This document shows positions 15,742 to 32,689 of a stretch of DNA of 64,000 bases, piece after piece. Location of the stretch: the NCBI GenBank assembly GCA_041488375.1, contig JBGPPD010000002.1:3823-67822 (forward strand). The letters run 5' to 3'. The number at the start of each line of letters is the position of its first letter. The first letter of the stretch is position 1. The DNA is from Gammaproteobacteria bacterium. Its GTDB lineage: Bacteria; Pseudomonadota; Gammaproteobacteria; Burkholderiales; SG8-39. The notes beneath the pieces were generated by a model. The model saw only the letters and a program-made list of their open reading frames with translations. It searched no databases and was not told where the DNA came from. The position numbers and the translations under genes were made by a program.

Positions 15742-16427
15742 GCTGCCTCGCGCGCCGGCGCCGCCCGCAGATCGGCCAGCACGCTCGAGAGCTTGTGCGC
15801 CAGATGGTCCGCAAGCAGCGCCTTGATGCGGACCACGTCGCGCGCAGCGAGCGCCTCGAGGATCTCGCCGTGCTCACGCACCGCGGCGTCCCAACGCTCC
15901 TGCGACAGGTTCGCCATGTAGCGTGCGCGGCGCACGTTCGCGTTCAGTTGCCGGTAGGTGTTGTAGAGCACCGTGTTGCCGGAGTATTTCACGATCTTCA
16001 GGTGGATCGCCTGGTTGAACTTGAAGTAGCCGGCAAGGTCGCTGCGCGCGTGGTTGGCGAGCATCTCCTGGTGCAGCAAGCGGATCTCGTTGATCTGGCC
16101 GTCGCTCGCTTTGACGCAGGCGAATTCGCCGGCGAGCGCCTCGAGCGCGCCCATCACCGCCAGGGTCTCCGCCAGCCGGACGGCATCGATCTCGGAAACG
16201 ATCGCGCCGCGGTTCGGCAGCAACTCGACCAAGCCTTCGGTAGCGAGTACCTTGAAAGCCTCGCGCAGCGGGGTGCGTGACACGCCAATCTGCGCGGTAA
16301 GCAGTCGCTCGTTCAAGCGGACCCCGGGGGCGAGTCGCCCTTGGACAATCAGGTCGCGCAGCCTGTCCGCAGCTTCCTCGTGCAGGGGCCGACGGGTGAT
16401 GGAAGTGATGTCTTGCGAGAATGTCAT
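15738..16427 (-). CDS. GntR-family (FadR/FCD subfamily) transcriptional regulator
   Basis: ORF 15738..16457 trimmed to the ATG at 16427. Winged-HTH N-terminus (LNERLLTAQIGVSRTPLREAFKVL) followed by an all-helical C-terminal domain. Confidence 0.85.
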   Translation of the reverse strand: MTFSQDITSITRRPLHEEAADRLRDLIVQGRLAPGVRLNERLLTAQIGVSRTPLREAFKVLATEGLVELLPNRGAIVSEIDAVRLAETLAVMGALEALAGEFACVKASDGQINEIRLLHQEMLANHARSDLAGYFKFNQAIHLKIVKYSGNTVLYNTYRQLNANVRRARYMANLSQERWDAAVREHGEILEALAARDVVRIKALLADHLAHKLSSVLADLRAAPAREAA

Positions 16428-16487
16428 TTTGCATGCAGAATACAAAACTTCGTCCAAAATAGCAACTTAAGCTTCTATTGTGGTGAG

Positions 16488-16499
16488 TTTGTATACAAA
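16488..16499. promoter_or_regulatory. candidate GntR operator TTTGTATACAAA
   Basis: Perfect 12-bp palindrome with a GT...AC core, 14 nt upstream of the aminotransferase ATG, in an AT-rich divergent gap. A TACAAA half-site lies near 16441. Confidence 0.5.
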
Positions 16500-16513
16500 A
16501 TGAGGAGATTTGG

Positions 16514-17710
16514 ATGAAGAGGACCGCTGGCCGTCATTTCCTGCAGATTCCGGGACCGACCAACGTACCCGACCGGGTCCTGCGCGCGATCGACCTCCCG
16601 ACCATGGACCACCGCGGGCCGGATTTCGCCGAACTCGGCAAGGCGGTCCTCGACGGCATGAAGCGCGTCTTCAAGACCAAGGGCCAGGTGGTGATCTATC
16701 CCGCCTCCGGCACCGGCGCCTGGGAAGCCGCGCTCGTCAACACGCTCTCGCCCGGCGACCAGGTCCTGATGTACGAGACGGGGCACTTCGCGAGCCTGTG
16801 GCAGAAGATGGCCGCAAAGCTCGGGCTGCAGCCAGAGTTCCTCGCGGGCGACTGGCGGACCGGGGCGGACCCGGCTGCCGTCGAAAGGCGCCTGCGCGAG
16901 GACGCCGGCCATCGCCTCAAGGCAGTCTGCGTTGTGCACAACGAGACTTCGACTGGCGTCACTTCACGCATCGGCGAAGTGCGCAAGGCGATCGACGCGG
17001 CAAGACATCCCGCGCTGTTGATGGTGGACACCATCTCGTCGCTCGCGTCGATCGACTACCGGCACGACGAGTGGGGCGTGGACGTCACCGTCGGCGGCTC
17101 GCAGAAGGGCTTGATGCTGCCGCCGGGGCTGTCCTTCAATGCAATTTCCGACAAGGCGCTGGCCGCTGCCAGGTTGGCGAAGCTGCCGCGCGCCTACTGG
17201 GGATGGGAGGAAATGATCGCCAACGGCAAGGCGGGCTATTTCCCCTACACGCCCGCCACCAACCTGCTCTACGGCCTGCGCGAAGCGCTGAAGATGCTGC
17301 TGGACGAAGAGGGCCTCGACAACGTCTTCGCGAGACACCAGCGCCACGCGGAAGCCACGCGCCGCGCAGTGCGCGCCTGGGGGCTGGAAGTGCTGGCGAC
17401 GAATCCCGCCGAATACAGCGGGGCGCTCACCGCGGTTCTGCTGCCGGCGGGACACGACGCCGACCGGGTACGCAAGATCATCCTCGAGCATTTCGACATG
17501 TCGCTCGGCACGGGCCTCGGCAAGCTCGCGGGCAAGGTGTTCCGCATCGGCCACTTGGGCGACCTCAACGACCTGACGCTGATGGGCACGCTGGCGGGCG
17601 TCGAGATGGGCCTGCAGCTCGCGGGAGTGCCCGCCAAGCAAGCCGGCGTGCAGGCCGCCATGCAATACCTCGCCTCGGTCCACGCGGCCGAGAAGCGCGC
17701 GGCGGCATGA
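16514..17710 (+). CDS. class V aminotransferase (serine-glyoxylate / alanine-glyoxylate / serine-pyruvate type)
   Basis: 398 aa. The N-terminus (GRHFLQIPGPTNVPDRVLRA) and the SQKGLMLPPG PLP-lysine region are typical of this family. Confidence 0.85.
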   Translation: MKRTAGRHFLQIPGPTNVPDRVLRAIDLPTMDHRGPDFAELGKAVLDGMKRVFKTKGQVVIYPASGTGAWEAALVNTLSPGDQVLMYETGHFASLWQKMAAKLGLQPEFLAGDWRTGADPAAVERRLREDAGHRLKAVCVVHNETSTGVTSRIGEVRKAIDAARHPALLMVDTISSLASIDYRHDEWGVDVTVGGSQKGLMLPPGLSFNAISDKALAAARLAKLPRAYWGWEEMIANGKAGYFPYTPATNLLYGLREALKMLLDEEGLDNVFARHQRHAEATRRAVRAWGLEVLATNPAEYSGALTAVLLPAGHDADRVRKIILEHFDMSLGTGLGKLAGKVFRIGHLGDLNDLTLMGTLAGVEMGLQLAGVPAKQAGVQAAMQYLASVHAAEKRAAA

Positions 17711-18486
17711 GCGAGCCGGTCTACGTCGAGCGCGACGGCGACCTCGCCACCGTCGTCCTCAACCGGCCGGAGCGCATGAATGCGCTCGACAAGGCGATGT
17801 GGATGCGCCTGGGCGCCGCCATGCGCGAGCTCGGCGCGGACGAGCACCTGCGCTGCATCGTGTTGCGCGGCGCGGGCGGCAAGGCGTTTGCCGCGGGCGC
17901 CGACATCAGCGAGTTCGCCAACGAGCGCGCCAACGCCGCGCAGGCAAGACGCTACGGCGAGGACGTCGCCGGCTCGATGCGCGCGCTGGCGGCGTGCCGC
18001 CATCCCACCGTGGCGCTGATCGAAGGCGCTTGCGTGGGCGGAGGGCTGCTCGTCGCCTCGCAATGCGATCTCAGGATCTGCAACGAGTCGGCGCGCTTCG
18101 GCGTGCCGGTGAAGAACCTCGGCCTCACCGAAGCCTACGACGAGCTGCAGGGCATGCTGCGCGTGCTCGGGGCCGCGGCGAGCCTCGAGATCCTGCTCGA
18201 GGGGCGCATTTGGGGCGCTCGCGAAGCCTACGAGAAGGGGCTCGTCAGCCGTGTGGTCCCGGATGCCGAGGTGGTCAAGGAAGCCTACGCCGCTGCGCGG
18301 CGCGTCGCGGACGGCGCGCCGCTGGTGGCGCGCTGGCACAAGAAATTCATCCGCCGGCTGGCCGATCCCCGCCCACTCAGCACGGAGGAAACCGCCGAGA
18401 GCTACGCCTGTTTCGACACTGAGGACTTCCGCATCGGCTATCGGGCGTTCCTGGACAAGAAGAAGCCGCAGTTCAGCGGGCGCTAA
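17707..18486 (+). CDS. enoyl-CoA hydratase/isomerase (crotonase) family protein
   Basis: Tail of ORF 16510..18486. The ATG at 17707 overlaps the upstream stop (ATGA). Motifs LNRPERMNAL and GAGGKAFAAGADI. Confidence 0.85.
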   Translation: MSEPVYVERDGDLATVVLNRPERMNALDKAMWMRLGAAMRELGADEHLRCIVLRGAGGKAFAAGADISEFANERANAAQARRYGEDVAGSMRALAACRHPTVALIEGACVGGGLLVASQCDLRICNESARFGVPVKNLGLTEAYDELQGMLRVLGAAASLEILLEGRIWGAREAYEKGLVSRVVPDAEVVKEAYAAARRVADGAPLVARWHKKFIRRLADPRPLSTEETAESYACFDTEDFRIGYRAFLDKKKPQFSGR

Positions 18487-18509
18487 GGCGCGCTGACTCG
18501 GCCAGCAGC

Positions 18510-19727
18510 CTAGATCGCGCCCTCGGCGCGCAGCGCCGCGATCTGCGCGGGGCTCCTGCCGAGGCGCTCGCGCAGGATCTGCTCGGTGTGCTCGCCGAGC
18601 GTCGGCGGCGCGAGCTTGTATTCCAGCGGCGTGCCCGAAAAGCGCATCGGGCTCGCCACCGTCGGCAGCTTGCCGGCCACCGGGTGGTCCAATTCGACGC
18701 GCACGCCGCGCGCGCGCACCTGCGGCTCCTCGAATACCTGCGCCAGGTCGTTGATCGGCCCGTTGGGCACGCCAGCGGCTTCCAGCCGCGCCAGCCACTC
18801 GTGCGTGGAGCGGGTCGCGAAGATGTCCTGCAGCAGCCGCGTCAGTTCAGCGCGGTTCTCCACCCGCTTGCCGTTGGTGGCGAAACGCGCATCGCCGGCC
18901 AGTTCCGGGCAGCCGGCCGCGTCGCAGAACTTGCGGTAGAGATTGTCGTTGCCGCAGGCGATGATGACCTCGCCGTCGGCGGTGCGAAACGGCTGGTAGG
19001 GCACGATGTTCGGGTGCAGGTTGCCGATGCGCGCCGGCGGCTTGCCGGTCGCGAAGTAGTTGGTGTTCTGGTAGGCCAGCAGCGCAATCTGCGAATCCAG
19101 CAGCGCGAGGTCGAGATGCTGTCCCTTGCCGGATTCCGCGCGATGCGCGAGCGCCGCGCAGATGGCGATCGAGGCGTACATGCCGGTGATGATGTCGGCA
19201 ACTGGAACTCCCGCGCGCATCGGCTCGCCGCCAGGCTCGCCGGAGACGCTCATCATGCCGCCCATGCCCTGGATCATGAAGTCGTAGCCCGGTCGCTCGC
19301 GGTACGGCCCGGTCTGGCCGAACCCGGTGACCGAGCAGTAGATGAGCTGCGGGTTGAGGCCCTGCAGGTCGTCGTAGCCCAGCCCGTAGCGCGCTAAGTC
19401 GCCGACCTTGTAGTTCTCGATCAGGACGTCGCTGGATCGGGCGAGTTCCCTGATGAGCGCCTGGCCCGCCGGACTCGAGATGTTGACCGTGACCGACTTC
19501 TTGCCGCGGTTGGCGGAGGTGAAATAGGCGGAGTCCTTCGTGTCCCGGCCTGCGCGGTCCTTCACCCAAGGCGGCCCAAAGGCGCGCGAATCGTCGCCGA
19601 TCTTCGGCCGTTCGATCTTGATCACTTCCGCGCCCAGGTCGGCGAGGTTCTGCCCGGCCCAGGGCCCGGCCAGTACGCGCGACAGATCGAGCACCCGGAT
19701 ATGCGACAACGGTCCTGCCATGTTCAT
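18510..19727 (-). CDS. family III CoA-transferase (CaiB/BaiF/Frc type)
   Basis: 405 aa. N-terminus GPLSHIRVLDLSRVLAGPWAGQNLADLGAEVIKIE is the family hallmark. Confidence 0.88.
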   Translation of the reverse strand: MNMAGPLSHIRVLDLSRVLAGPWAGQNLADLGAEVIKIERPKIGDDSRAFGPPWVKDRAGRDTKDSAYFTSANRGKKSVTVNISSPAGQALIRELARSSDVLIENYKVGDLARYGLGYDDLQGLNPQLIYCSVTGFGQTGPYRERPGYDFMIQGMGGMMSVSGEPGGEPMRAGVPVADIITGMYASIAICAALAHRAESGKGQHLDLALLDSQIALLAYQNTNYFATGKPPARIGNLHPNIVPYQPFRTADGEVIIACGNDNLYRKFCDAAGCPELAGDARFATNGKRVENRAELTRLLQDIFATRSTHEWLARLEAAGVPNGPINDLAQVFEEPQVRARGVRVELDHPVAGKLPTVASPMRFSGTPLEYKLAPPTLGEHTEQILRERLGRSPAQIAALRAEGAI

Positions 19728-19737
19728 GTCCCCCTTG

Positions 19738-20532
19738 TCACCACAAGTGTGCCAGCATGCGCAGCCCTAGCGCGAGCAGCGTCAGCGCGAACACCATGCG
19801 CAAACGCTTCACCGGCAGCCGGTGCGCCAGGCGCGCGCCGAGCGGCGCCATCGGCATGCTGGCGGCCACGACCAGCAGCAGAGCCGGCAGGTACACATAA
19901 CCCAGGCTCCATGGCGGCAGGTCGGACACGCGCATGCCTTGCACTACATAGCCGACCGTGCCCGCCACCGCGATCGGAAAACCGTTCGCCGCGGCCGTGC
20001 CGATGGCGCGTTTCAACGGCAGATTGCACCACGCAAGGAACGGGATCGAAAGGAACGCGCCACCCGCCGCCAGCACGCTCGAAATGGCGCCGATGCCGGC
20101 GCCGGCTGCGAACAGCCCGCCACTGCCCGGCAGCTGGCGCCCGGGCTTCGGCTTGATCTCCACGAACATTTGCGCAGCCGCGTAAAACATGAATCCGGTG
20201 AAGAACACCGCCAGCGGCCGCGTCGGGATGAAGCTGGCGAGCAGCGCGGCCGCCAGCGAGCCCGCGAGGATGCCGGGCGCCATCGCGCGCGCCACCGGCC
20301 AGTCCACGCCGCCGTGGCGGTGATGCGCGCGCACGCTGGAAAGCGACGTGAACGTGATCGTCGCCAGCGAAGTGGCAAGCGCCAGATGCATCATGTGCTC
20401 GCCCGGAAAGCCATTGGCGGTGAATACGAAAACCAGCATCGGCACCATCACCATGCCCCCGCCGATGCCGAGCAGTCCCGCGAGGAACCCCACGGTCACG
20501 CCGATGACGAGGTAAGCCCACCACCAGTCCAC
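19738..20532 (-). CDS. TSUP (TauE/SafE) family anion exporter
   Basis: 264 aa polytopic protein with GTG start and repeated GIGGG-type motifs. Confidence 0.8.
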   Translation of the reverse strand: MDWWWAYLVIGVTVGFLAGLLGIGGGMVMVPMLVFVFTANGFPGEHMMHLALATSLATITFTSLSSVRAHHRHGGVDWPVARAMAPGILAGSLAAALLASFIPTRPLAVFFTGFMFYAAAQMFVEIKPKPGRQLPGSGGLFAAGAGIGAISSVLAAGGAFLSIPFLAWCNLPLKRAIGTAAANGFPIAVAGTVGYVVQGMRVSDLPPWSLGYVYLPALLLVVAASMPMAPLGARLAHRLPVKRLRMVFALTLLALGLRMLAHLW

Positions 20533-21314
20533 TAGCGCTCGCCCAGCAGGTGCGCGACAAGCTCGGCGAAGCCTGCGCCGGCTTGCGCCTGCGTGACGTA
20601 CTTCGGCGGCGCCGGCAGCCGCCCGGCGAAGCGCGCGACGTTCGCGACGCCGACCGAGTTCGCGAAATAGGCGAACATCGGCGCGTCGTTGGGCGAGTCG
20701 CCCGCGTAGGCGTACTGCGCATTCGCCGAATCGAGGTCGGTCGCGAACTTCTCGGCGAACAGGATCCTGGTCATGGCCAGCTTGTCGTAACCGCCAAACC
20801 AGCCGTTGACGTGGATCGAACTGATCTTGGCGGACAGGCCCGCTTCACGCATCAGCGCGGCGATGCGCTCCGCCGCCTCCAACGGCAGCGCCGGCACGTC
20901 CTCGCAATAGTCGATCGCGAGGTCGGCTTCGCGGTAGGCCTGGTCGGACGCCAGCGCACAACCCGGGGCCGCGGCGAGGATGCGCTGCGCGATCGCCGCG
21001 AGGCGCGCGCGCTTGTCGGCGCGCGTTGCCTCCGGGTCATGGAAGCGCTTGTGCAGCTTGCCCGATTCGTGGCGGAAATAGAACGCCCCGTTCTCGCCCA
21101 CGACGGCGTCCACCGGCCACATGCGCGCAATGTGGTCGCACCAGCCGGCGGGGCGTCCGGTCACCGCGATCACCATGCGTCCTGCCTGCTTGAGCCGTTC
21201 GAGCGCTGCGTAGGCCTGCGCGGTCAGCCGGCCTTCGGTGGTCAGCGTGTCGTCGATGTCGAACAGCAGGCCGCGCAGTCGTTCTGCGCCGCGCAACTCG
21301 GCTAGCGGCTTCAT
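20532..21314 (-). CDS. HAD-superfamily (IIB-like) phosphatase
   Basis: 260 aa. Motif I is FDIDDTLT and the distal motif is GDSPND. Confidence 0.75.
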   Translation of the reverse strand: MKPLAELRGAERLRGLLFDIDDTLTTEGRLTAQAYAALERLKQAGRMVIAVTGRPAGWCDHIARMWPVDAVVGENGAFYFRHESGKLHKRFHDPEATRADKRARLAAIAQRILAAAPGCALASDQAYREADLAIDYCEDVPALPLEAAERIAALMREAGLSAKISSIHVNGWFGGYDKLAMTRILFAEKFATDLDSANAQYAYAGDSPNDAPMFAYFANSVGVANVARFAGRLPAPPKYVTQAQAGAGFAELVAHLLGER

Positions 21315-21327
21315 GGAGGGCGCGATT

Positions 21328-22983
21328 CTAGCGCGCCAGGGGCAGCTGCACGCGTACCACCACGCCGTCGCCGGAGCCCAGGTTCGCCGCCTCGATGGCG
21401 CCGCCGTGGAACTCTGCGATCAGCCGTGCCACGTACAGGCCCAGGCCCAGGTGCGGACCGCCGCCCGCGCGCTCGCCCCGCACCGAGACCATCGAGTCGA
21501 ACAGCCGCCCACGCATTTCCGCCGGCAGCAGCGGGCCCTTGTTCTGCACCGACAGCACAGCCGCGCCATCGACTTGCTCCAGGACAATCCGCACCGGCTC
21601 GCCGGACCTGGAGAACTCGACCGCGTTCTCCACCAGCTTGTCGAGCAGTTGCGCCGCGAGATCCGCCGCGCCGGCGACCGGCAGCGCGCTGCCGGGCAGC
21701 TCGAGGTCGAACGGCACCCGCGCATAGGCCAGCCGGTAACCCTCGACACAGCCCCGCACCAGCCCTTCGAGGTCGAAACGCTCGCGCTCGGCGGTGCGCA
21801 GGCTTTGTTCCAGGCGGCTCGCTTCGCTCATTCTTTGCAGAATGGTATTCAGCCGCGCCAGTCCCTGTTCTGCACGCTCGATGTAGGTCCGCGATTCGGC
21901 GGCATCCGTGGCCAGTTTCAGGTTCTCCAGCGAAGAACGCACCACTGCAATCGGCGTGCGCAGTTCGTGTGACAGCCGCCCCGCCATGCTTTCCAGATAG
22001 GCGTGGTGCTGCGCGAGCTTGGCCAGCATCGCGGAAAAGCTGCGTGACAGGTCGCCGATCTCGTCGCCGGCCTCCGAGCCCGCGGACAGGCGCGCGATGC
22101 GGCCGCGCGCATCGATCGCGCTTTCCGCCTCGTCGCGCAGGCGCCGGATGCGATGCGACAGCCAGGAGGCATACGCGATCAGCATCGCCGCGGCGCCGAG
22201 GAAAACCGTCAGCGTGAGGGCGAGCAGCCGTTCCAGCGCTTCGCTGCGCAACGTGGCGATCGGATTGGTGGTCTCCTCCACCACCACCGCGCCCGCGACC
22301 TCGTTGTGGTTCCAGACCGGGTGCGCCGCGGACACGACCACGGCTCGGCCGTCGGCGGTGCGCCGCGTGCGGCTGCCCGGCGTTCCCTGCAGCGCGGCCG
22401 CGATATCGCGTCCGGTGGCCAGCACGTCATCGGGCACCGCCTCGGCAAAATCTTCGCGCGGGCGCCGAATCAGCCAACCGGCAAAAGCGTGCCATGTCTC
22501 GCGCATCAGCCCGCCTTCCTCGGCGGGCGGCTCCGGGCGGCGCAGGCTGCCGGCCAAGGCCAGCACCTGGTAGCGGCGGTTCACCACCCAGATGCGCGAT
22601 TCGGTGCGCTGCACGCCACGCAGGATCGCCGCGATGTCCTCCTGCGCGGCGCGGGCGGCGAGCGCGGCTTCACGCGCCAGGGGAACCGGCGCTGCCGCCG
22701 GATCGAGGAGGCGTCCTTCGCTCTCCGCGATGCGCTGCAGCTCGAGCTCCGCCTCGCGGCGCATGGCGTCGTCCCGCTCCGGCAAGGCCACCAGCAGCTG
22801 CGGGCGATCGTGCAGCGCCGTGGCAATGGCGCGCGCCGTGCCGACGAGCGCTCGCTGCTGGCCCTCCAGCAGCACTTGCTCCAGTTCATTCACGTAGCGC
22901 ACCCCCACCCACGGCAGCGCGAGCAGGACCAGCGCCACCAGCGCCAACCTGGCGCGCAAGCCGAGCCGGAAGCGCCGCTTCAC
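21328..22983 (-). CDS. sensor histidine kinase of the proteobacterial dedicated sortase system
   Basis: Tail of ORF 21328..23829. GTG at 22983 gives a GTGA overlap with the RR stop. TM segment LALVALVLLALPW, large periplasmic region, second TM, H-box LSHELRTPIAV, ATPase domain with the N, G1 and G2 boxes. Confidence 0.8.
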   Translation of the reverse strand: MKRRFRLGLRARLALVALVLLALPWVGVRYVNELEQVLLEGQQRALVGTARAIATALHDRPQLLVALPERDDAMRREAELELQRIAESEGRLLDPAAAPVPLAREAALAARAAQEDIAAILRGVQRTESRIWVVNRRYQVLALAGSLRRPEPPAEEGGLMRETWHAFAGWLIRRPREDFAEAVPDDVLATGRDIAAALQGTPGSRTRRTADGRAVVVSAAHPVWNHNEVAGAVVVEETTNPIATLRSEALERLLALTLTVFLGAAAMLIAYASWLSHRIRRLRDEAESAIDARGRIARLSAGSEAGDEIGDLSRSFSAMLAKLAQHHAYLESMAGRLSHELRTPIAVVRSSLENLKLATDAAESRTYIERAEQGLARLNTILQRMSEASRLEQSLRTAERERFDLEGLVRGCVEGYRLAYARVPFDLELPGSALPVAGAADLAAQLLDKLVENAVEFSRSGEPVRIVLEQVDGAAVLSVQNKGPLLPAEMRGRLFDSMVSVRGERAGGGPHLGLGLYVARLIAEFHGGAIEAANLGSGDGVVVRVQLPLAR

Positions 22984-23669
22984 TCCTTCCAACGGTAGCC
23001 CATGCCGTAGGCCGTCTCGATCTGGTCGAACGCGGGGTCCACTCCCTGGAACTTGCGCCGCACGCGCTTGACGTGCGAGGTCACGGTGCCGTCGTCCACG
23101 ACCAGGTTGGCCTCGCGCATCAGCTGCTCGCGGTTCTTCACATGACCCGGGTGTCTGGCCAGGGCATGCACCATCCAGAACTCGGTGAGGGTGAGCGGCA
23201 CCGGCTTGCCGTGCCAGGCGACGGCGAAGCGCTTCAGATCCAGGCTCAAGGCGCCGCGCTCGATGGTCTCCTCGAGCGCCTGCGGTTCGCGCGAAAGTTC
23301 CGCGCGACGGAACAGCGCGCTGATGCGTGCCAGCAGGTGCGGCAGGCTCACATCCTTGGTCAGGTAGTCGTCCGCGCCGAGGCGCAGGCCCGACACCACG
23401 TCGAAGTCGCTGTCGCGCGCGGTGAGGAAAATGATCGGCAGTGTCGCGGACAGCGCGCGCAACTCGCGGCACAGCGTGAAGCCCGCATCCGCATCGCTGC
23501 CCAGGCCGATGTCGATGATCGCCAGATCCGGCAGGCGCGTGCGCGCCGCGGACAGCGCCTCGGCGCGCCCCGCGTAGGCGCCAACCTCGAATCCGTGCTT
23601 GCGCAGCGCTTCGCTGTAGTTGGCGCGGATGGCCGGATCGTCCTCGACGATGGCGATGCGGCGGGACAT
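22980..23669 (-). CDS. OmpR-family DNA-binding response regulator (dedicated sortase system RR)
   Basis: 229 aa. Receiver domain (IAIVEDD...DLAIIDIGL) plus winged-helix output ending GMGYRW. Confidence 0.85.
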   Translation of the reverse strand: MSRRIAIVEDDPAIRANYSEALRKHGFEVGAYAGRAEALSAARTRLPDLAIIDIGLGSDADAGFTLCRELRALSATLPIIFLTARDSDFDVVSGLRLGADDYLTKDVSLPHLLARISALFRRAELSREPQALEETIERGALSLDLKRFAVAWHGKPVPLTLTEFWMVHALARHPGHVKNREQLMREANLVVDDGTVTSHVKRVRRKFQGVDPAFDQIETAYGMGYRWKE

Positions 23670-23827
23670 GGCGGGCGACTATAGCCCAACGCCGCCGCCG
23701 CCGCGGCGCCTGCCATGGGATTGCCAGAATTCTTCGCCGCCTTTGCTCCGTCCGGACGCGGCGCGGCCTCCGCCGGCTCGTGCAATGCATGCTCAGCAGC
23801 AGCGTCAACTCCGAGGACACCGCCGCC

Positions 23828-25933
23828 ATGCCGAGCCGGACACCTTCCGCCAGCGCCCGCGTCGTCGCCTACGACCTGCTTGCGTTCATCGCGCTTGCGG
23901 TGGCCATCGCCTTGGCCGCCGCCGCGGTGCTGACCGCCACGGTCCTCCTGCTCGCCGGCCGCGCCGAAGCAGCCCCGGGCACCGAGCAGGAGCCGGGCGC
24001 CTTGCTGCTTCGCACTCTGGACGGCAGGCGGGCGGCGAGCGCGCCGCTGCTGTCCACGGAGGTCACCTTCCGCGTCTCCGGCATGCTGGCCAGGGCGCGA
24101 GTCGTGCAGACCTTCCACAACGCCACCGCCGACTGGGTCGAGGGTGTCTATGTGTTCCCGCTGCCGGAAAACGCCGCCGTGGATCGTCTGCAGTTGCGCG
24201 TCGGCGAGCGCCTGATCGAAGGGGAAATCCGCGAGCGCGACGCCGCGCGCCGCGCCTACCAGCAGGCGCGCGCCGCCGGCCAGCGCACCGCCCTGATGGA
24301 CCAGGAGCGTCCCAACCTCTTCACCACCCGCGTCGCCAACATCGGGCCGCAGCAATTGGTCGCGGTCGAACTGGAGTACCAGCAGACCCTGCGTTACGAC
24401 AACGGGCGCTATTCGCTGCGCTTCCCGATGGTCGTGGCGCCGCGCTACATCGCCGGCAACCTCAAGGTATCGGCGACGGAGCAACTCGGCTGGAGCCCGA
24501 ACACGGACCAGGTGGCGGACGCCGCACGCATCACGCCGCCCGTGCTACGGCCCGAGGCGGGACCAGCCAACCCGGTATCGATCCGCGTCGAGCTGGATGC
24601 CGGCGTGCCAATCGCGCAGCTGGACAGCCCCTACCATCCCGTGGACGTGCGCACCATTTCGGCAAGCCGGCGCCTGGTCGAACTGGCTGACGGTGCAGTG
24701 CCGGCCAACAAGGACTTCGAATTGACCTGGGCGCCGCACGCCGGGGCCGCGCCGCAGCTGGCGTGGTTCACTGAGCAAAAGGCGGGTCGCCACTACGGCT
24801 TGCTGATGGTGCTGCCGCCCGCCGCTGCGCCGGGCGCACGGCTCCCCCGTGAAGTCGTGTTCGTGCTGGATACCTCGGGCTCGATGGCAGGCGCGTCGAT
24901 CCGCCAGGCCAGGGACGCGCTCGAGTTGGCGCTGTTGCGGCTCGCCCCGGGAGATCGCTTCAATGTCATCGAATTCAATTCGACGGCGCAGTCGCTGTTT
25001 GCCGGACCGCAGCCAGTGAACCCGCGCAACGTGCGGCGCGCGATCGATTGGGTGCGCTCGCTGCAGGCGCGCGGCGGCACCGAGATGGCCGCTGCGCTGC
25101 AGCTGGCGCTCGACGGCTCCGACGGCGGCGTTCGCGTACGCCAAGTGGTGTTCCTGACCGACGGGGCGGTGGGCAACGAAGAGGCGCTATGCAATCTGAT
25201 CCGCGAGCGTCTCGGCGACACACGCCTGTTCACCATCGGCATCGGCTCGGCGCCAAACAGCCATTTCATGACCAAGGCGGCGCAACTTGGCCGAGGGACG
25301 TTTACCTACATCGGCCGCATCGAGGAGGTGCAGGCGAAGATGGGCGAGCTGTTCGCCAAGCTCGAATCGCCGGTCCTCAAGGGCCTCGAAGTGCATTGGC
25401 CGCAGGGCGTGCACGCACAAGCCTGGCCCACCCGCATCCCGGATCTGTATGCCGGCGAGCCCGTGGTGCTCGTTGTGGCGCTCGAGCGACTCGAGGGCGA
25501 GGTGCGCGTCAGCGGCTTGCGCGACAACCGCACCTGGGAAGCGCTTGTGCCGCTTGCGCTCAACGGCAACGCCGCCGGCATGGGCTCGCTCTGGGCGCGC
25601 GGCAAAGTGGAATCGCTCATCGACTCGATCCGCGAAGGCGCAAGCGAGGAGGAAGTCCGTACCCAGGTCCTCGAGTTGGCCACCGCGCATCGCCTGGTCA
25701 CCAAGTACACGAGCTTTGTCGCGGTGGACAAGTCGCCAGCACTGCCGTCGGACGCGCAGCTCAAGCTCGCCGCCGTGCCGACCAATCTTCCCGAAGGCTG
25801 GGAGGCCGACAAGGTGTTCGGCGAGCTGCCGCAGGGTGCGACCGACAGCCGTTGGGCGATGCTCACCGGGTTGCTGATGCTGCTGCCGGCGCTGGCGATG
25901 CTCTTCGCGCGGCGCCGCCGGAGCCTGGCGTGA
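23828..25933 (+). CDS. VIT + von Willebrand factor A domain protein with a C-terminal sortase sorting signal (sortase target)
   Basis: ORF 23780..25933, likely ATG at 23828. VIT-like region (VYVFPLPENAAV...IGERLIEGEI). vWA MIDAS motif DTSGSM. C-terminus is LPQGATDSRW, then a hydrophobic stretch, then ARRRRSLA. Confidence 0.85.
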   Translation: MPSRTPSASARVVAYDLLAFIALAVAIALAAAAVLTATVLLLAGRAEAAPGTEQEPGALLLRTLDGRRAASAPLLSTEVTFRVSGMLARARVVQTFHNATADWVEGVYVFPLPENAAVDRLQLRVGERLIEGEIRERDAARRAYQQARAAGQRTALMDQERPNLFTTRVANIGPQQLVAVELEYQQTLRYDNGRYSLRFPMVVAPRYIAGNLKVSATEQLGWSPNTDQVADAARITPPVLRPEAGPANPVSIRVELDAGVPIAQLDSPYHPVDVRTISASRRLVELADGAVPANKDFELTWAPHAGAAPQLAWFTEQKAGRHYGLLMVLPPAAAPGARLPREVVFVLDTSGSMAGASIRQARDALELALLRLAPGDRFNVIEFNSTAQSLFAGPQPVNPRNVRRAIDWVRSLQARGGTEMAAALQLALDGSDGGVRVRQVVFLTDGAVGNEEALCNLIRERLGDTRLFTIGIGSAPNSHFMTKAAQLGRGTFTYIGRIEEVQAKMGELFAKLESPVLKGLEVHWPQGVHAQAWPTRIPDLYAGEPVVLVVALERLEGEVRVSGLRDNRTWEALVPLALNGNAAGMGSLWARGKVESLIDSIREGASEEEVRTQVLELATAHRLVTKYTSFVAVDKSPALPSDAQLKLAAVPTNLPEGWEADKVFGELPQGATDSRWAMLTGLLMLLPALAMLFARRRRSLA

Positions 25934-26598
25934 AACCCGAACTCTCGTGGGGCGCGGAATGCGCGTGGCCAAGGCGCGCTTCGGCGCGGAATCTTCGCAG
26001 CGCCTTGTCTTGGAGGTCCCTGGCGCTGGGCCTGTTCCTCATTGGGGCCCTGCAGTTCGGCTACGGCGCGTGGATCCAGGCCAAGGCCTGGCTGGCGCAG
26101 GAACTCATTGCGCGCGCCTGGGCGCGTACGCTCAAGGGCGAGACCGAGGTGAAGCCCTGGCCCTGGGCCGACACTTGGCCGGTGGCGCGATTGTCTGCGC
26201 CCGGCCTGGGAGTCGAGCGCTACGTGCTTGCGGGCGCCAACGGCAGTGCGATCGCATTCGGCCCCGGCCATTTGTCCGGCACGCCGGTGCCCGGAGAGCC
26301 CGGCAACAGCGTGATCGGCGGGCACCGCGACACGCACCTCGCGTTCCTGCGCAAAGTGAAGCCGGGCGACGAACTGGTCATCGAACGCGCGGACGGCGCG
26401 CACGTCGCCTACCGGGTGCGCGAGGCGCTGGTGCTCGACAAACGCGACGTCTGGGTGGCGAAGCAGGAGGGACCGAACCGCCTCACGCTGGTCACCTGCT
26501 TTCCTTTCGACGCGCTGCGCGCCGGCGGGCCGCAGCGCTACGTGGTGTTCGCTTTCGAATCCAAGAACCGCGGCGGCGAGCGCGGGACGCGGGGCTAG
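25930..26598 (+). CDS. class GN (proteobacterial) sortase
   Basis: Tail of ORF 25048..26598. The GTG at 25930 overlaps the target stop (GTGA). N-terminal TM segment, catalytic His context IGGHRDTH, catalytic Cys in TLVTC, downstream Arg (PQRYVV). Confidence 0.8.
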   Translation: MKPELSWGAECAWPRRASARNLRSALSWRSLALGLFLIGALQFGYGAWIQAKAWLAQELIARAWARTLKGETEVKPWPWADTWPVARLSAPGLGVERYVLAGANGSAIAFGPGHLSGTPVPGEPGNSVIGGHRDTHLAFLRKVKPGDELVIERADGAHVAYRVREALVLDKRDVWVAKQEGPNRLTLVTCFPFDALRAGGPQRYVVFAFESKNRGGERGTRG

Positions 26599-26638
26599 CT
26601 TCCTCCTCTAGCCGCCCTCCCCGCTCGCCCGCTTCGGC

Positions 26639-28318
26639 TCAAAAGGTGGCGTAGCTCTTCACCAGGAACTGGACCTTCTTGATGCTCGGGTCCGCATCGA
26701 CCGGGAACGCAATGTCCAGATGCAGCACTTTGGCGGTTGCCGAGCGGTCGTTGAGAAAGCGCAATCCGAAGCCGAAATCGCGCAGCCAGCCGGGGTTGGT
26801 GAGGTTCTCATACGGGCCACCCCAGGCTCGCCCGACGTCGAAGAACACGGCCGCGCCGACGCGAATCAGCTGGAAGGGGTACCAGTCCGTGTAGACCCTC
26901 TCCTCGAGGGTGAACAGAGCGCGCTGGTTGCCGCTCTGATAGCGCATCGGATAGCCGCGCATCCCGCTGTCGCCACCGAGGAGCAGTTGGTCCGAGGCAA
27001 GTGGATTCCTTACCAGGTCAACGCCCGCCGCAGCGTAAAAAAGTCCGCGCGGCCCTTGCTGCAGGAAATAGCGCGTGGAGGCGCCATAGAATTGCCGCTC
27101 GCCACGCCCGTCGCCGTATTGTCCGGAGAGTCTGACCCCGGTCTGCAAGTCGCTGCTGCTGCCCGTGCGAAAGCCCTTGCTGATTTCGCCGGAATACAGC
27201 CACAGGTCCCGCGTCGATCCAAGTCCGGAAGAGGTTCGACCCAGTTGCACCCGCGAGTAGAGGCCCATGGAAACGAATTCAGGGCGGCCGATCTTGTCCC
27301 GGTTGGCCATCTTGACATAGCCGTCCTCGATGACTTCGTAGCGCACAAACGGGTATGCCAGCGTTTGATCGGCGGGCACTTGCGCCGGCGCGGGCAGGGC
27401 CGGGTCGATCTGGTACGCGTCTTCCTGATAGCCGACACCGACGGAATAGCGCTGCACCCATCCGCCCACCAGGCCATCCGACCAGCCGCCGTAGACTTCG
27501 CCCGACTGCTGCTGGTGACGATACTGCGCGACGATGGCGCTATTGGTGTAGATCGAATCGATCTGCTCGAACTTTCCAATGGAGACGCCAAGTGCCCATC
27601 GCGTGTCGAGCGCATAGAAAGGCCGCGCCAGCGAAAACGAGTGCGCGTAGCCGTCGCTGTTGGTGGCGGTCCGGTAGTCGAATGTCGTCCAGTTGCCGAA
27701 GAGCTGGTTGTGGGCGATCTCGAACTCGTTTCCCGAGCGGTCTACCGAGGAGCTGCGCGATACGCCCACGGCGACGCCGGTGCCGAACAGGTTCTGTTCC
27801 TTCACCGACAGTCCGGTCGAATTGCTGCCGCCGCCGCGGCTGAAGCTGCCGCCCGGTTCCAGCGTCCAGGTGTCGCGCGTGCGCACTTCGATGTCGACAA
27901 CGCCGTCGCGAACCGCCGCCGGCCGGATGCTCACGTCATACAGGTAGCGGGTGTTGCGCAGCAGGCGCTCGGACTCTTCGATGAGGCGCAGCGAGACGCG
28001 CTCGCCGCTGCGAAACAACAGCGAACGTTGGATCACGCTCGGGCGGGTACGGATATGCAGCCAGTTCGCCAGCCGGTACAGCGAACTGTTTTCCTTCGGG
28101 TTTTCCAGGTCGAAGATATTCTGCGGATTGATGCGCACCTCGCCGATGACGGCACCGGCCGCCTCGAGCTCGGCAAAGGACGGAACGACCGTGTCGCGCA
28201 CGGCGTCGTCCGCGATCGCGGGCAAGCAGTGGCACAGGGCGGCGATGCAGGCCGACAGCACAAACCGCCTGGACGTCTGCACCATTTCCCGGTGACGACC
28301 CGCGCGCGCCGGCTTCAT
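26639..28318 (-). CDS. Omp85-superfamily outer-membrane protein (POTRA + surface antigen/D15 barrel)
   Basis: 559 aa. The likely true start is the ATG at 28285 (MVQTSRRFVLSACIAALCHCLPAIA signal peptide). POTRA-like N-terminus, barrel rich in G/Y/F alternation, terminal ...SYATF. Confidence 0.75.
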   Translation of the reverse strand: MKPARAGRHREMVQTSRRFVLSACIAALCHCLPAIADDAVRDTVVPSFAELEAAGAVIGEVRINPQNIFDLENPKENSSLYRLANWLHIRTRPSVIQRSLLFRSGERVSLRLIEESERLLRNTRYLYDVSIRPAAVRDGVVDIEVRTRDTWTLEPGGSFSRGGGSNSTGLSVKEQNLFGTGVAVGVSRSSSVDRSGNEFEIAHNQLFGNWTTFDYRTATNSDGYAHSFSLARPFYALDTRWALGVSIGKFEQIDSIYTNSAIVAQYRHQQQSGEVYGGWSDGLVGGWVQRYSVGVGYQEDAYQIDPALPAPAQVPADQTLAYPFVRYEVIEDGYVKMANRDKIGRPEFVSMGLYSRVQLGRTSSGLGSTRDLWLYSGEISKGFRTGSSSDLQTGVRLSGQYGDGRGERQFYGASTRYFLQQGPRGLFYAAAGVDLVRNPLASDQLLLGGDSGMRGYPMRYQSGNQRALFTLEERVYTDWYPFQLIRVGAAVFFDVGRAWGGPYENLTNPGWLRDFGFGLRFLNDRSATAKVLHLDIAFPVDADPSIKKVQFLVKSYATF

Positions 28319-28369
28319 GGAACATGATGCCGACGCGGCGTGCGCCGGGTCAAGCGTGCGGCGCGTACG

Positions 28370-28791
28370 TTACTTGCGGCGTAGCTTGCGGATCGCCGCG
28401 AGCTGCGCGGCGAGCATCGCCAGCTCCCCTTCCACCGCGGCGATCTCCTGCTTGTCCTGCGCCTTGGCGCGGGCCTCTTCGGCCTTCTTGATGGCCTCGT
28501 TCGCCTTCGCCTCATCGAGGTCGTGGCCGCGGATCGCCGTGTCGGCAAGCACCGTGATCACCTTGGGCTGTACTTCGAGGATGCCGCCGGCGACAAAAAT
28601 CAATTCTTCCGCGCCGCCGCCCGCCGGGGTGATGCGCACCGTCCCCGGCCTGATGCGCGTGATCAGCGGCGCATGGCGCGGATAGATGCCGAGCTCTCCC
28701 GCTTCGCCGGGAAGAACGACGAACTCCGCCTCGCCCGAGTAGATCGAGGCTTCAGCGCTGACGACATCGACGTGGATGGTGGCGGTAGCCA

Positions 28792-28792
<1 letters not shown>
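28370..28792 (-). CDS. atpC: F0F1 ATP synthase subunit epsilon
   Basis: 140-aa tail of ORF 28370..30040 ([14 protein letters not shown]...). Follows atpD with a 1-nt overlap. Confidence 0.92.
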
Positions 28793-31097
<2,305 letters not shown>

Positions 31098-31141
31098 AGT
31101 TTCGAACAGGGGAACCTAGGATCCCCCGTTACCCTCCCCTT

Positions 31142-32689
<1,548 letters not shown>

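What the first reader, a model, noticed from the sequence alone, without database searches (positions are those of the whole stretch)
21328..26598. Gram-negative 'dedicated sortase' locus: RR-HK divergent from a VIT/vWA substrate gene and a class GN sortase
Seen in sequence: a 222-aa protein carries a sortase His context (IGGHRDTH), the TLVTC catalytic-Cys motif and a downstream Arg. It is translationally coupled (GTGA) to a 701-aa protein. That protein has a VIT-like N-terminal region, a vWA MIDAS motif (DTSGSM) and a C-terminal LPxxx motif followed by a hydrophobic helix and an RRRR tail. An OmpR-type RR and a kinase with a large periplasmic domain (also GTGA-coupled) are transcribed divergently from the pair. 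Established knowledge (from memory, to be verified): this four-gene architecture matches the computationally defined proteobacterial dedicated sortase system (TIGRFAMs TIGR03784/85/87/88). In that system a Gram-negative genome encodes one sortase with essentially one substrate. To my knowledge the anchoring acceptor, the kinase signal and the physiological role are not established experimentally. That makes this the least understood multi-gene system in the window.
Basis: partly seen in the sequence, partly recalled or inferred. Interest (0 to 1): 0.8.

Follow-up and report, generated by a model that had tools for sequence, protein, structure and literature searches.

The report
Known Gram-negative dedicated sortase locus

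Summary
The genes are a kinase (21328-22983, -), a response regulator (22980-23669, -), a VIT/vWA sortase target (23828-25933, +) and a class GN sortase (25930-26598, +). Both pairs overlap by GTGA. The regulator, target and sortase score above the curated NCBIfam cut-offs (TIGR03787/88/84). The kinase has TIGR03785 as its best hit but falls below the cut-off, because it lacks the ~200-aa CBM9-like insert of the Shewanella kinase. The fifth Shewanella gene, pdsO, is absent.

The system is not unstudied. In Shewanella oneidensis the orthologous kinase and regulator (PghKR) respond to peptidoglycan damage and induce the sortase operon. A pdsS mutation in S. algae does the same.

New here:
- A conserved direct-repeat box (TTGCCA-N5-TTGCCA, 23710-23748), likely the regulator's binding site.
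- A clade-typical LPQGAT sorting motif, with Gly where LPXTG has Thr.
- A whole-length structural match of the target to human ITIH1.
- Loss of the target gene in the closest relative.

The anchoring acceptor remains unknown. Verdict: real, correctly interpreted, already known; modest interest.

The parts
21328..22983 (-). pdsS/pghK-type sensor histidine kinase, 551 aa. TM1 lies at about aa 11-30, the periplasmic sensor at about 31-250, and TM2 at about 250-275. These are followed by HAMP, HisKA (His339) and HATPase domains. This is the short variant without the CBM9-like insert.
   Evidence: TIGR03785 is the best hit at 553.5 bits, below the cut-off of 612.2. Pfam finds HisKA and HATPase_c. 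The alignment with 680-730-aa homologues shows a ~200-aa deletion in the sensor. Pfam CBM9_1 is detected only in the long homologue L050.
22980..23669 (-). pdsR/pghR-type OmpR-family response regulator, 229 aa, with receiver Asp53. Its stop codon overlaps the kinase start (GTGA).
   Evidence: TIGR03787 scores 377.4 bits against a cut-off of 335.7. Pfam finds Response_reg and Trans_reg_C. The overlap is shown.
23670..23827 (.). Divergent 158-bp control region between the RR gene and the target gene.
   Evidence: Sequence. Conserved blocks are seen across 40 or more related loci.
23710..23748 (+). Predicted PdsR box: direct repeats with 11-bp period, CTGCCAtgggaTTGCCAgaattcTTCGCCgcctTTGCTC. There are two strong half-sites (23710-15 and 23721-26) and two degenerate ones.
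   Evidence: The same TTGCCA-N5-TTGCCA dimer, oriented towards the target, occurs in the RR-target intergenic region of 27 of 43 loci that have the TCS, against 3 of 16 loci without it. Site density is 15 times that of the rest of the loci. Its function as a binding site is inferred, not shown.
23783..23788 (+). Conserved CAATGC (-10-like) element about 40 nt upstream of the target start codon.
   Evidence: Variants (CAATGC, TAATGC, TAAATA) recur at the same relative position in related loci (by eye). The strict sigma-70 scan finds nothing. This feature is weakly supported.
23678..23683 (-). Conserved TATAGT -10 hexamer, 8 nt upstream of the RR start codon. It suggests a leaderless or nearly leaderless RR-HK transcript.
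   Evidence: GACTATAG is conserved next to the RR start in L001, L003, L004, L008, L009, L013 and L069. It is also present, further upstream of the aligned start, in L031, L059, L064, L068 and L076. This is an inference only.
23828..25933 (+). Sortase target, 701 aa. It has an N-terminal export signal (aa 1-48, AEA|A), a VIT domain (aa 75-184, nt 24050-24379), a beta domain, a vWA domain (aa 342-492, nt 24851-25303) with MIDAS DTSGSM (nt 24869-24886), a C-terminal beta/helical region and a disordered linker of about 45 aa.
   Evidence: TIGR03788 scores 779.8 bits against a cut-off of 551.65. Pfam finds VIT and VWA. The MIDAS residues are invariant. The model has pLDDT 65. Its best PDB match is ITIH1 (6FPY) over 622 columns, E 8e-36.
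25826..25921 (+). C-terminal sorting signal: LPQGAT (aa 667-672, nt 25826-25843), hydrophobic helix (aa 676-694) and RRRR (aa 695-698).
   Evidence: LPQGATD is the commonest form among the homologous tails (51 of 171 unique tails).
25930..26598 (+). Class GN sortase, 222 aa, with an N-terminal TM anchor (aa 29-49). Catalytic residues are His132 (nt 26323-25), Cys190 (26497-99) and Arg203 (26536-38). Its start codon overlaps the target stop codon (GTGA).
   Evidence: TIGR03784 scores 212.8 bits against a cut-off of 158.25. Pfam Sortase matches. Invariant residues are listed. The model has pLDDT 75.5. Foldseek gives probability 1.0 to sortases of classes A, C, D and E. The best PDB sequence match is B. 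anthracis SrtD 2LN7.
26565..26640 (+). Conserved 3' stem-loop with a CCUCCU loop. It contains the sortase stop codon and probably marks the end of the operon.
   Evidence: MFE is -46.1 kcal/mol, z = -3.3. Nine distinct sortase-linked versions show compensatory changes at 5 pairs. There is no Rfam match.

Best explanation
This is a chromosomal copy of the 'proteobacterial dedicated sortase' (Pds) system in an uncultured betaproteobacterium. It has the four-gene form that is commonest among the loci compared: pdsS-pdsR divergent from target-sortase, with no pdsO.

Proposed working, step by step:
1. The kinase is a CreC/ChvG-like envelope sensor lacking the CBM9 insert. It phosphorylates the OmpR-type regulator. 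This step is inferred from domain content.
2. By homology with Shewanella PghKR, the trigger is likely a cell-wall (peptidoglycan) perturbation. This is uncertain here because the CBM9 subdomain that Shewanella needs is missing.
3. The phosphorylated regulator binds the 11-bp-period TTGCCA repeats at 23710-23748 and activates the target-sortase operon. The site is inferred from comparative conservation. Activation is shown only in Shewanella.
4. The ITIH-like VIT/vWA protein is exported by Sec. It is held in the inner membrane by its C-terminal helix and RRRR tail.
5. The membrane-anchored sortase (Cys190/His132/Arg203) cleaves within LPQGAT and forms a thioacyl intermediate.
6. The sortase transfers the protein to an amine. 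By analogy with its nearest relatives, the class D sortases, the most likely acceptor is the meso-diaminopimelate of a peptidoglycan stem peptide. The result would be a metal-dependent (MIDAS) binding module tethered in the periplasm by a ~45-residue flexible linker.

Steps 4 to 6 are inference. No acceptor has been shown for any class GN sortase.
For: Identity: three of the four family models score above their curated cut-offs, and the fourth is the best hit. The Pfam domains agree. The sortase fold and catalytic residues are confirmed. The tripartite sorting signal is present.

Architecture: 43 of 59 informative related loci have the divergent RR-HK pair (41 by the script, plus L003 and L066, added by hand from the listing). 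Only 8 of them have a pdsO-like gene. The short kinase is the rule in Betaproteobacteria (bioRxiv 10.1101/2023.05.05.539549, section 10).

Regulation: the box is conserved and enriched in TCS-bearing loci. It has the same layout as the cre/blr tag TTCACN6TTCAC of CreB, the closest characterised regulator (PMC4689548). In S. oneidensis the orthologous TCS induces the sortase operon more than 17-fold after ampicillin or PBP1a loss (bioRxiv 10.1101/2023.05.05.539549). In S. algae the pdsS G547W mutation raises sortase, target and pdsO 126-, 388- and 799-fold (PMC11580497).

Anchoring chemistry: the nearest sortase families are class D (NF058671, 'LPxTATN-specific', 79 bits; NF033746, 75 bits). 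The nearest solved structure by sequence is B. anthracis SrtD. The motif LPQ[T/G]AT resembles LPxTATN.
Against: - The kinase fails the TIGR03785 cut-off. It lacks the CBM9 subdomain shown to be required for signalling in S. oneidensis, so the signal may differ.
- In this clade the motif has Gly where every characterised sortase substrate has the acyl-donor Thr. A Thr two residues downstream was present in every motif I could identify. The scissile bond may therefore not be the canonical one. The regular expression used required that Thr.
- Deleting SO2194-SO2196 in S. oneidensis gave no ampicillin phenotype, so the physiological role is not established (bioRxiv 10.1101/2023.05.05.539549).
- The closest relative (L001) has lost the target gene but keeps an intact sortase. 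This would be odd if the sortase has only this one substrate, unless that copy is decaying or the contig is misassembled.
- No acceptor has been demonstrated for any member.
Confidence: 0.62

Rival explanations
1. The sortase joins the target to a protein rather than to peptidoglycan. The acceptor could be an outer-membrane or peptidoglycan-associated protein, or further copies of the target itself, as in class C pilus polymerisation.
For: Foldseek ranks class C (pilus) sortases first, although the scores are nearly the same as for other classes. In gammaproteobacterial loci an OmpA-like PdsO is co-transcribed and is the most strongly induced gene (PMC11580497). vWA domains are typical of pilus tip adhesins (SpaC, RrgA and PitA appear among the structural matches).
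Against: pdsO is absent from this window and from 35 of 43 TCS-bearing loci, so it cannot be the general acceptor. By sequence, class D is closer than class C (79 and 75 bits against 46 bits). I did not look for a pilin-type motif or a second substrate, and the window holds only one sorting-signal protein.
Confidence: 0.15
2. The sortase acts only as a processing or release protease. It cuts off the membrane anchor and hydrolyses the intermediate. The VIT/vWA protein then works as a soluble periplasmic or secreted factor.
For: Sortases can hydrolyse their acyl intermediate in vitro (established knowledge). Homologous VIT/vWA proteins use other C-terminal sorting systems, GlyGly-CTERM/rhombosortase and PEP-CTERM/exosortase (PMC3237569). 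This suggests the common need is removal of a C-terminal anchor.
Against: All characterised sortases act as transpeptidases in vivo. The conserved long flexible linker in front of the motif (pLDDT below 50 for residues 624-677) fits a tether better than a leaving group.
Confidence: 0.13
3. The N-terminal hydrophobic segment is not cleaved. After sortase action the protein would be a covalent strut between the inner membrane and peptidoglycan, made when the wall is damaged.
For: In the betaproteobacterial clade the N-terminal hydrophobic stretch is unusually long, about 31 residues (aa 12-42), predicted as one helix H10-47. In Shewanella the operon is induced by wall damage.
Against: A conserved AxA motif follows the segment (A46-E-A48|A; A43 and A46 are conserved). 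Other clades have ordinary short signal peptides.
Confidence: 0.07
4. The locus is a decaying remnant without function in this organism.
For: The closest relative has an in-frame deletion that removes nearly the whole target gene. The sortase/Omp85 segment is more diverged from that relative than its flanks (76% against 85% nucleotide identity).
Against: All four ORFs are intact. The catalytic, MIDAS, phospho-acceptor and sorting residues are all present. Translational coupling is preserved. The regulator box and the 3' hairpin are conserved.
Confidence: 0.03

Closest known systems
Shewanella Pds/PghKR locus (S. oneidensis SO2192-SO2196; S. algae pdsS-pdsR-pdsO-target-sortase)
   Same: The same four protein families (TIGR03784/85/87/88) are present. 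The layout is the same: RR-HK divergent from the target-sortase operon. The target is of the same VIT/vWA type with a C-terminal sorting signal. The regulator is expected to activate the operon.
   Different: This locus has no pdsO. Its kinase is about 170 aa shorter and lacks the CBM9 subdomain required for signalling in S. oneidensis. Its sorting motif is LPQGAT, whereas Thr occupies the fourth position in 50 of the 171 unique homologue tails examined. No blaA, relV or creD regulon member was looked for beyond a box scan of the 64 kb.
Class D sortases (B. anthracis SrtD, PDB 2LN7; NCBIfam NF058671 'LPxTATN-specific')
   Same: They are the closest sortase class by profile score and by solved-structure sequence match. 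The GHRDT, TL(V/T)TCYPF and RY motifs are shared. The substrate motif has Ala-Thr after the fourth position. From memory, class D enzymes of bacilli attach to meso-diaminopimelate, the same cross-bridge residue as in proteobacterial peptidoglycan.
   Different: Scores are far below the class D cut-offs (79 against 140; 75 against 165). The host is a diderm. There is one substrate, encoded next door. In this clade Gly replaces the acyl-donor Thr.
Human inter-alpha-inhibitor heavy chain 1 (ITIH1, PDB 6FPY)
   Same: The structural match runs over the whole length (622 aligned columns, E 8e-36, TM 0.52-0.60). The VIT and vWA/MIDAS domains come in the same order. From memory, ITIH heavy chains are also processed at the C-terminus and covalently transferred to a glycan (chondroitin sulfate or hyaluronan).
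   Different: Sequence identity is 16%. The attachment chemistry (ester through a C-terminal Asp) and the enzymes are unrelated to sortase. The functional parallel is an analogy, not evidence.
CreBC/BlrAB two-component systems and the cre/blr tag
   Same: CreB and CreC are the next-best characterised families for the regulator and the kinase (165 and 164 bits). The predicted box TTGCCA-N5-TTGCCA has the same direct-repeat layout with 11-bp period as TTCACN6TTCAC. Both systems are linked to beta-lactam or cell-wall stress.
   Different: The half-site sequences differ, as do the sensor domains and the regulons. Scores are well below the CreB and CreC cut-offs.

Membership tests
Proteobacterial dedicated sortase (Pds) system | Class GN sortase: TIGR03784 above its curated cut-off | tested here: met
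   212.8 bits against 158.25, E 2.5e-63
Proteobacterial dedicated sortase (Pds) system | Sortase fold with the catalytic His, Cys and Arg | tested here: met
   His132 and Arg203 are invariant among 22 homologues, and Cys190 is present in 21 of 22. The motifs align with B. anthracis SrtD. Foldseek gives probability 1.0 to solved sortases. The three-dimensional geometry of the triad could not be inspected because no coordinates were returned.
Proteobacterial dedicated sortase (Pds) system | Target protein: TIGR03788 above its cut-off, with VIT and vWA domains | tested here: met
   779.8 bits against 551.65. Pfam VIT E 9e-32 and VWA_3 E 3e-24. The MIDAS residues are invariant.
Proteobacterial dedicated sortase (Pds) system | C-terminal tripartite sorting signal (LPXTG-like motif, hydrophobic helix, basic tail) on the target | tested here: met
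   LPQGAT, a 19-residue helix and RRRR. The motif form is the commonest in the clade. Position 4 is Gly, not Thr.
Proteobacterial dedicated sortase (Pds) system | Target and sortase encoded by adjacent genes on the same strand | tested here: met
   4-nt GTGA overlap at 25930-25933. The two genes are adjacent in nearly all loci that hold both.
Proteobacterial dedicated sortase (Pds) system | Response regulator: TIGR03787 above its cut-off | tested here: met
   377.4 bits against 335.7
Proteobacterial dedicated sortase (Pds) system | Histidine kinase: TIGR03785 above its cut-off | tested here: not met
   553.5 bits against 612.2. Residues 115-548 match model positions 259-703. The shortfall is explained by the missing ~200-aa sensor insert. 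TIGR03785 is still the best family by 390 bits.
Proteobacterial dedicated sortase (Pds) system | PdsO (TIGR03789) OmpA-like protein in the operon | tested here: not met
   A profile built from six pdsO-like proteins of related loci gives no hit in the six-frame ORFs of the whole window at E <= 10. Only 158 bp separate the RR and target genes. PdsO is also lacking in 35 of 43 TCS-bearing loci, so it is accessory.
Proteobacterial dedicated sortase (Pds) system | 'Dedicated': one sortase and one substrate in the genome | not testable with these tools
   Only 64 kb are available. Within them, one ORF of 311 carries a sorting signal.
PghKR peptidoglycan-damage sensing system (S. oneidensis) | Kinase and regulator orthologous to SO2192/SO2193 and placed next to the sortase operon | tested here: met
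   Same NCBIfam families and same divergent layout (bioRxiv 10.1101/2023.05.05.539549)
PghKR peptidoglycan-damage sensing system (S. oneidensis) | CBM9 subdomain in the periplasmic sensor, required for signalling | tested here: not met
   No CBM9_1 hit at E <= 1, whereas the long homologue L050 has one (24.8 bits). The alignment shows the insert is deleted.
PghKR peptidoglycan-damage sensing system (S. oneidensis) | Activation by cell-wall-targeting antibiotics | not testable with these tools
   This needs an experiment in the host or a heterologous reporter.
Class D sortases | NF033746 or NF058671 above the curated cut-off | tested here: not met
   74.7 bits against 165, and 79 bits against 140. 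This is a related class, not membership.

The most novel reading that the evidence does not exclude
In this clade, which lacks both the CBM9 insert and PdsO, the class GN sortase may not use the canonical LPXT|G chemistry. Gly occupies the acyl-donor position, and the Ala-Thr that follows was the most constant part of the motifs examined. The enzyme might cut after that downstream Thr, or use an acceptor unlike any known one. It would then covalently fix an ITIH-like VIT/vWA protein to the wall in response to envelope damage. That would be a bacterial counterpart of the covalent transfer of ITIH heavy chains to hyaluronan.
Probability: 0.12. Interest if true: 0.7.

Novelty: already known. Interest (0 to 1): 0.3.

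Why it matters
Sortases in diderm bacteria have been known from genomes since the early 2000s, yet no acceptor or role has been shown. Work in Shewanella now ties the linked two-component system to peptidoglycan-damage sensing and to beta-lactam resistance. This locus adds no new kind of system.

It does document the commonest natural variant among the loci compared: no PdsO, no CBM9 sensor module, and Gly in the motif. That sets three constraints on any general model:
- PdsO cannot be the universal acceptor.
- CBM9 cannot be the universal sensor.
- A Thr at motif position 4 cannot be essential.

The predicted regulator box gives a concrete handle for regulon prediction and for reporter design.

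Tried and rejected
- pdsO: a search of the whole window with a profile of six pdsO-like proteins found nothing.
- Omp85-family neighbour (26639-28318, -): I tested whether it belongs to the system. It is adjacent only in L001 and L042, not in L003, L004 or the other loci, and it has no Pfam domain. I rejected it as a component.
- Kinase periplasmic region: a search against PDB sequences gave no match at E <= 10.
- Rfam search of 21000-29000: only a chance-level hit.
- Sigma-70 consensus scan: no promoter found in this 70% GC region.
- Second TTGCCA dimer at 62683 (-): it lies inside a 682-aa ORF and is taken as chance.
- Metagenome scan for the 3' hairpin: mostly unrelated GC-rich matches. Only 10 of 124 matches across all held loci were sortase-linked.
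- Sortase C-terminal peptide NRGGERGxRG: I considered it a functional tail. It is better explained as the 5' arm of the conserved hairpin read in frame.
- Triad geometry: it could not be measured because model coordinates are not returned.


Full report
**1. Observation**

The region holds four genes in two divergent, translationally coupled pairs.
- Histidine kinase: 21328-22983 (-), 551 aa.
- Response regulator: 22980-23669 (-), 229 aa.
- Large secreted protein (the target): 23828-25933 (+), 701 aa.
- Sortase: 25930-26598 (+), 222 aa.

Both pairs overlap by GTGA. These models equal the public gene calls on a contig that carries a 100%-identical target gene (GCA_041497915.1, JBGQHL010000030.1) and on a Logan contig.

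- Sortase: IGGHRDTH, TLVTC and the downstream Arg.
- Target: DTSGSM, and the ending ELPQGATDSRW-AMLTGLLMLLPALAMLFA-RRRRSLA.

**2. Family tests**

Against NCBIfam:

| Protein | Model | Bits | Cut-off |
|---|---|---|---|
| Regulator | TIGR03787 | 377.4 | 335.7 |
| Target | TIGR03788 | 779.8 | 551.65 |
| Sortase | TIGR03784 | 212.8 | 158.25 |
| Kinase | TIGR03785 | 553.5 | 612.2 |

The kinase's best family is TIGR03785, but it falls below the cut-off. Only its residues 115-548 align, to model positions 259-703.

Pfam gives VIT, VWA, Sortase, HisKA/HATPase and Response_reg/Trans_reg_C.

Among 22 sortase homologues His132 and Arg203 are invariant, and Cys190 is present in 21. A profile of these sequences finds B. 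anthracis SrtD (2LN7) as the best solved relative, with the GHRDT, TL(V/T)TCYPF and RY motifs aligned. An AlphaFold model (pLDDT 75.5) matches solved sortases with Foldseek probability 1.0.

The target's MIDAS residues (D348, S350, S352, T418, D445) are invariant in 28 homologues. Its model (pLDDT 65) matches human inter-alpha-inhibitor heavy chain 1 over 622 columns (E 8e-36, TM 0.52-0.60).

**3. Context and relatives**

The locus sits in ordinary chromosomal surroundings. CoA-transferase, TauE and HAD hydrolase genes lie on one side. An Omp85-family gene and the atp operon lie on the other. There is no compositional anomaly.

A scan of one genome per species returned 576 related loci, of which the best 80 were kept. 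The closest is a Betaproteobacteria MAG (L001). It is about 85% identical at the nucleotide level and collinear with window 14216-31573.

The sortase family is not confined to marine organisms or to Proteobacteria. It occurs in:
- Thermoanaerobaculia and other Acidobacteriota, Nitrospira, Gemmatimonadota, Myxococcota and Desulfobulbaceae MAGs;
- soil metagenomes;
- megaplasmids of Rhizobium, Phyllobacterium, Novosphingobium and Brucella anthropi, where RefSeq already names the genes 'class GN sortase' and 'marine proteobacterial sortase target protein'.

**4. Architecture across loci**

Of 59 informative loci:
- 43 have the divergent regulator-kinase pair. One search counted 41; L003 and L066 were added by hand from the listing.
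- Only 8 of those 43 also have a pdsO-like OmpA gene (best family TIGR03789).
- 15 have target plus sortase without an adjacent two-component system.
- One, L001, lacks the target.

In Brucella anthropi an HTH regulator takes the place of the two-component system. The conserved core is therefore the target-sortase pair. The regulator module and PdsO are accessory. The window shows the commonest four-gene form. No pdsO-like ORF exists anywhere in the 64 kb.

**5. The kinase**

Kinases at these loci fall into two size classes:
- 537-554 aa in most betaproteobacterial loci (L009, L031, L059, L069, L076);
- 675-729 aa in the gammaproteobacterial loci.

An alignment shows that the short forms, including this one, lack a block of about 200 aa in the periplasmic sensor. 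The flanking sensor segments are well conserved. Pfam finds CBM9_1 in that block of a long homologue (L050, 24.8 bits) and nothing comparable in the window protein. This explains the sub-threshold TIGR03785 score.

**6. What is already known**

- A review lists the Shewanella, Colwellia, Microbulbifer and Bradyrhizobium cases as uncharacterised (PMC8225981).
- Yin et al. (bioRxiv 10.1101/2023.05.05.539549) studied S. oneidensis SO2192/SO2193, the kinase and regulator of this system, renamed PghKR.
  - They are needed for beta-lactam resistance.
  - They are activated by several wall-targeting antibiotics and by PBP1a loss.
  - They induce blaA, relV and the sortase operon SO2194-SO2196 more than 17-fold.
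  - The CBM9 subdomain is required.
  - Most betaproteobacterial homologues lack CBM9.
  - Deleting SO2194-96 did not change ampicillin resistance.
- In S. algae a recurrent pdsS G547W mutation raised sortase, target and pdsO transcripts 126-, 388- and 799-fold and was associated with carbapenem resistance (PMC11580497).
- A 2026 paper uses PghKR as a biosensor (PMC13488354).

The statement that the acceptor and the role of the sortase are unknown still holds.

**7. New details from this analysis**

(a) Regulator box. The divergent control region carries direct repeats with an 11-bp period: CTGCCAtgggaTTGCCAgaattcTTCGCC...TTGCTC (23710-23748). The same TTGCCA-N5-TTGCCA dimer, pointing towards the target or pdsO, is found in the corresponding region across Beta- and Gammaproteobacteria and Acidobacteriota.
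- With a threshold of at least 10 of 12 matches and spacing 10-11, it occurs in 27 of 43 loci with the two-component system, against 3 of 16 without it.
- Its density is 15 times that of the rest of the loci.
- In the window a match of at least 11 of 12 occurs twice. The second lies inside a coding region.
- The layout equals the cre/blr tag TTCACN6TTCAC of CreB (PMC4689548). CreB is the next-best family for this regulator.

I take this as the likely PdsR/PghR binding site. That is an inference from conservation. I found no published site.

(b) Sorting motif. Among 171 unique homologue tails the motif reads [L/F/Y]-P-[Q/R/A/K]-[G/T]-[A/S/G]-T-[D/P/G/N]. LPQGATD is the commonest form. The sample is biased towards relatives of the query, and the search expression required the last Thr. 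By eye, all but one tail has it.
- In this clade Gly replaces the Thr that supplies the acyl group in all studied sortase substrates.
- The Ala-Thr that follows recalls the 'LPxTATN' specificity that NCBIfam names for a class D subfamily.

(c) Linker. The target model has a low-confidence linker of about 45 residues (624-677) in front of the motif.

**8. Mechanism**

Shown by sequence and family tests:
- an envelope sensor kinase and an OmpR-type regulator;
- a Sec-exported VIT/vWA protein with a C-terminal sorting signal;
- a membrane-anchored cysteine transpeptidase with a complete catalytic set;
- tight translational coupling.

Shown only in Shewanella: the regulator pair activates the operon on wall damage.

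Inferred:
- binding at the TTGCCA repeats;
- cleavage within LPQGAT;
- transfer to the meso-diaminopimelate of peptidoglycan, by analogy with class D sortases.

Rival readings are a protein acceptor or polymerisation, release by hydrolysis, an inner-membrane-to-wall strut, and a decaying locus. They are set out in the rival explanations with their tests. I put the identity at about 0.95 and peptidoglycan anchoring at about 0.45.

**9. Verdict**

The system is already known, already named in public annotation, and partly characterised. The variant features (no PdsO, no CBM9, Gly in the motif) are typical of the clade. The absence of CBM9 is already noted in the preprint. Interest is modest. The real open question, the acceptor, is no easier to test here than in Shewanella.

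Noticed in passing
window 26565-26640 (+): A strong conserved stem-loop spans the sortase stop codon (MFE -46 kcal/mol, z = -3.3). Nine distinct sortase-linked versions keep the outer stem GCGAGCG/CGCUCGC and show compensatory changes at 5 inner pairs. All have a CCUCC(U) loop, which resembles an anti-Shine-Dalgarno sequence. There is no U-tract and no Rfam match. It explains the 'conserved' sortase C-terminal peptide NRGGERGxRG. It is found only in the closest betaproteobacterial clade.
   Followed up: yes
L001 9807-10004, corresponding to window 24013-25908: The closest relative (MAG JANNTQ010000109) is collinear with the window but lacks the interior of the target gene. What remains is a 65-codon in-frame remnant: the signal peptide fused to the last codons. 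It is still GTGA-coupled to an intact sortase. This is either a real loss of the only known substrate or an assembly collapse.
   Followed up: partly
window 26639-28318 (-): A 559-aa protein with a signal peptide lies convergent with the sortase. It shows only a weak BamA/Omp85 match (52.6 bits, far below the cut-off) and has no Pfam domain. It is adjacent to the sortase only in L001 and L042, so it is probably not part of the system.
   Followed up: partly
window 23678-23683 (-): A TATAGT hexamer lies 8 nt upstream of the regulator's ATG and is conserved (GACTATAG) in many betaproteobacterial loci. It suggests a leaderless or nearly leaderless regulator-kinase transcript.
   Followed up: partly
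window 23861-23953 (target aa 12-42): The N-terminal hydrophobic stretch of the target is about 31 residues long in the betaproteobacterial clade and is followed by a conserved AxA. Other clades have ordinary short signal peptides. Whether it is cleaved is open.
   Followed up: partly
L005, about 130 nt upstream of the target start (7854): A perfect TTGCCATCCTCTTGCCA box sits upstream of a target gene in a Burkholderiales MAG that has no adjacent kinase or regulator. This suggests the regulator is encoded elsewhere in that genome.
   Followed up: no
L203 (Brucella anthropi plasmid pOANT04) 3744-7540: In Alphaproteobacteria the target-sortase pair lies divergent from an HTH regulator instead of a two-component system, and it is carried on plasmids or chromids.
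   Followed up: partly
window 62683 (-): A second TTGCCA-N5-TTGCC dimer matching 11 of 12 positions lies inside a 682-aa ORF (61922-63970, -). It is taken as chance.
   Followed up: partly
proteins P0050 and P0061: One sortase homologue, on a 251-kb contig, has Arg in place of the catalytic Cys (TLVTRYPF). Another (302 aa) carries an internal duplication of the N-terminal part of the domain. These may be inactive copies or sequence errors.
   Followed up: no
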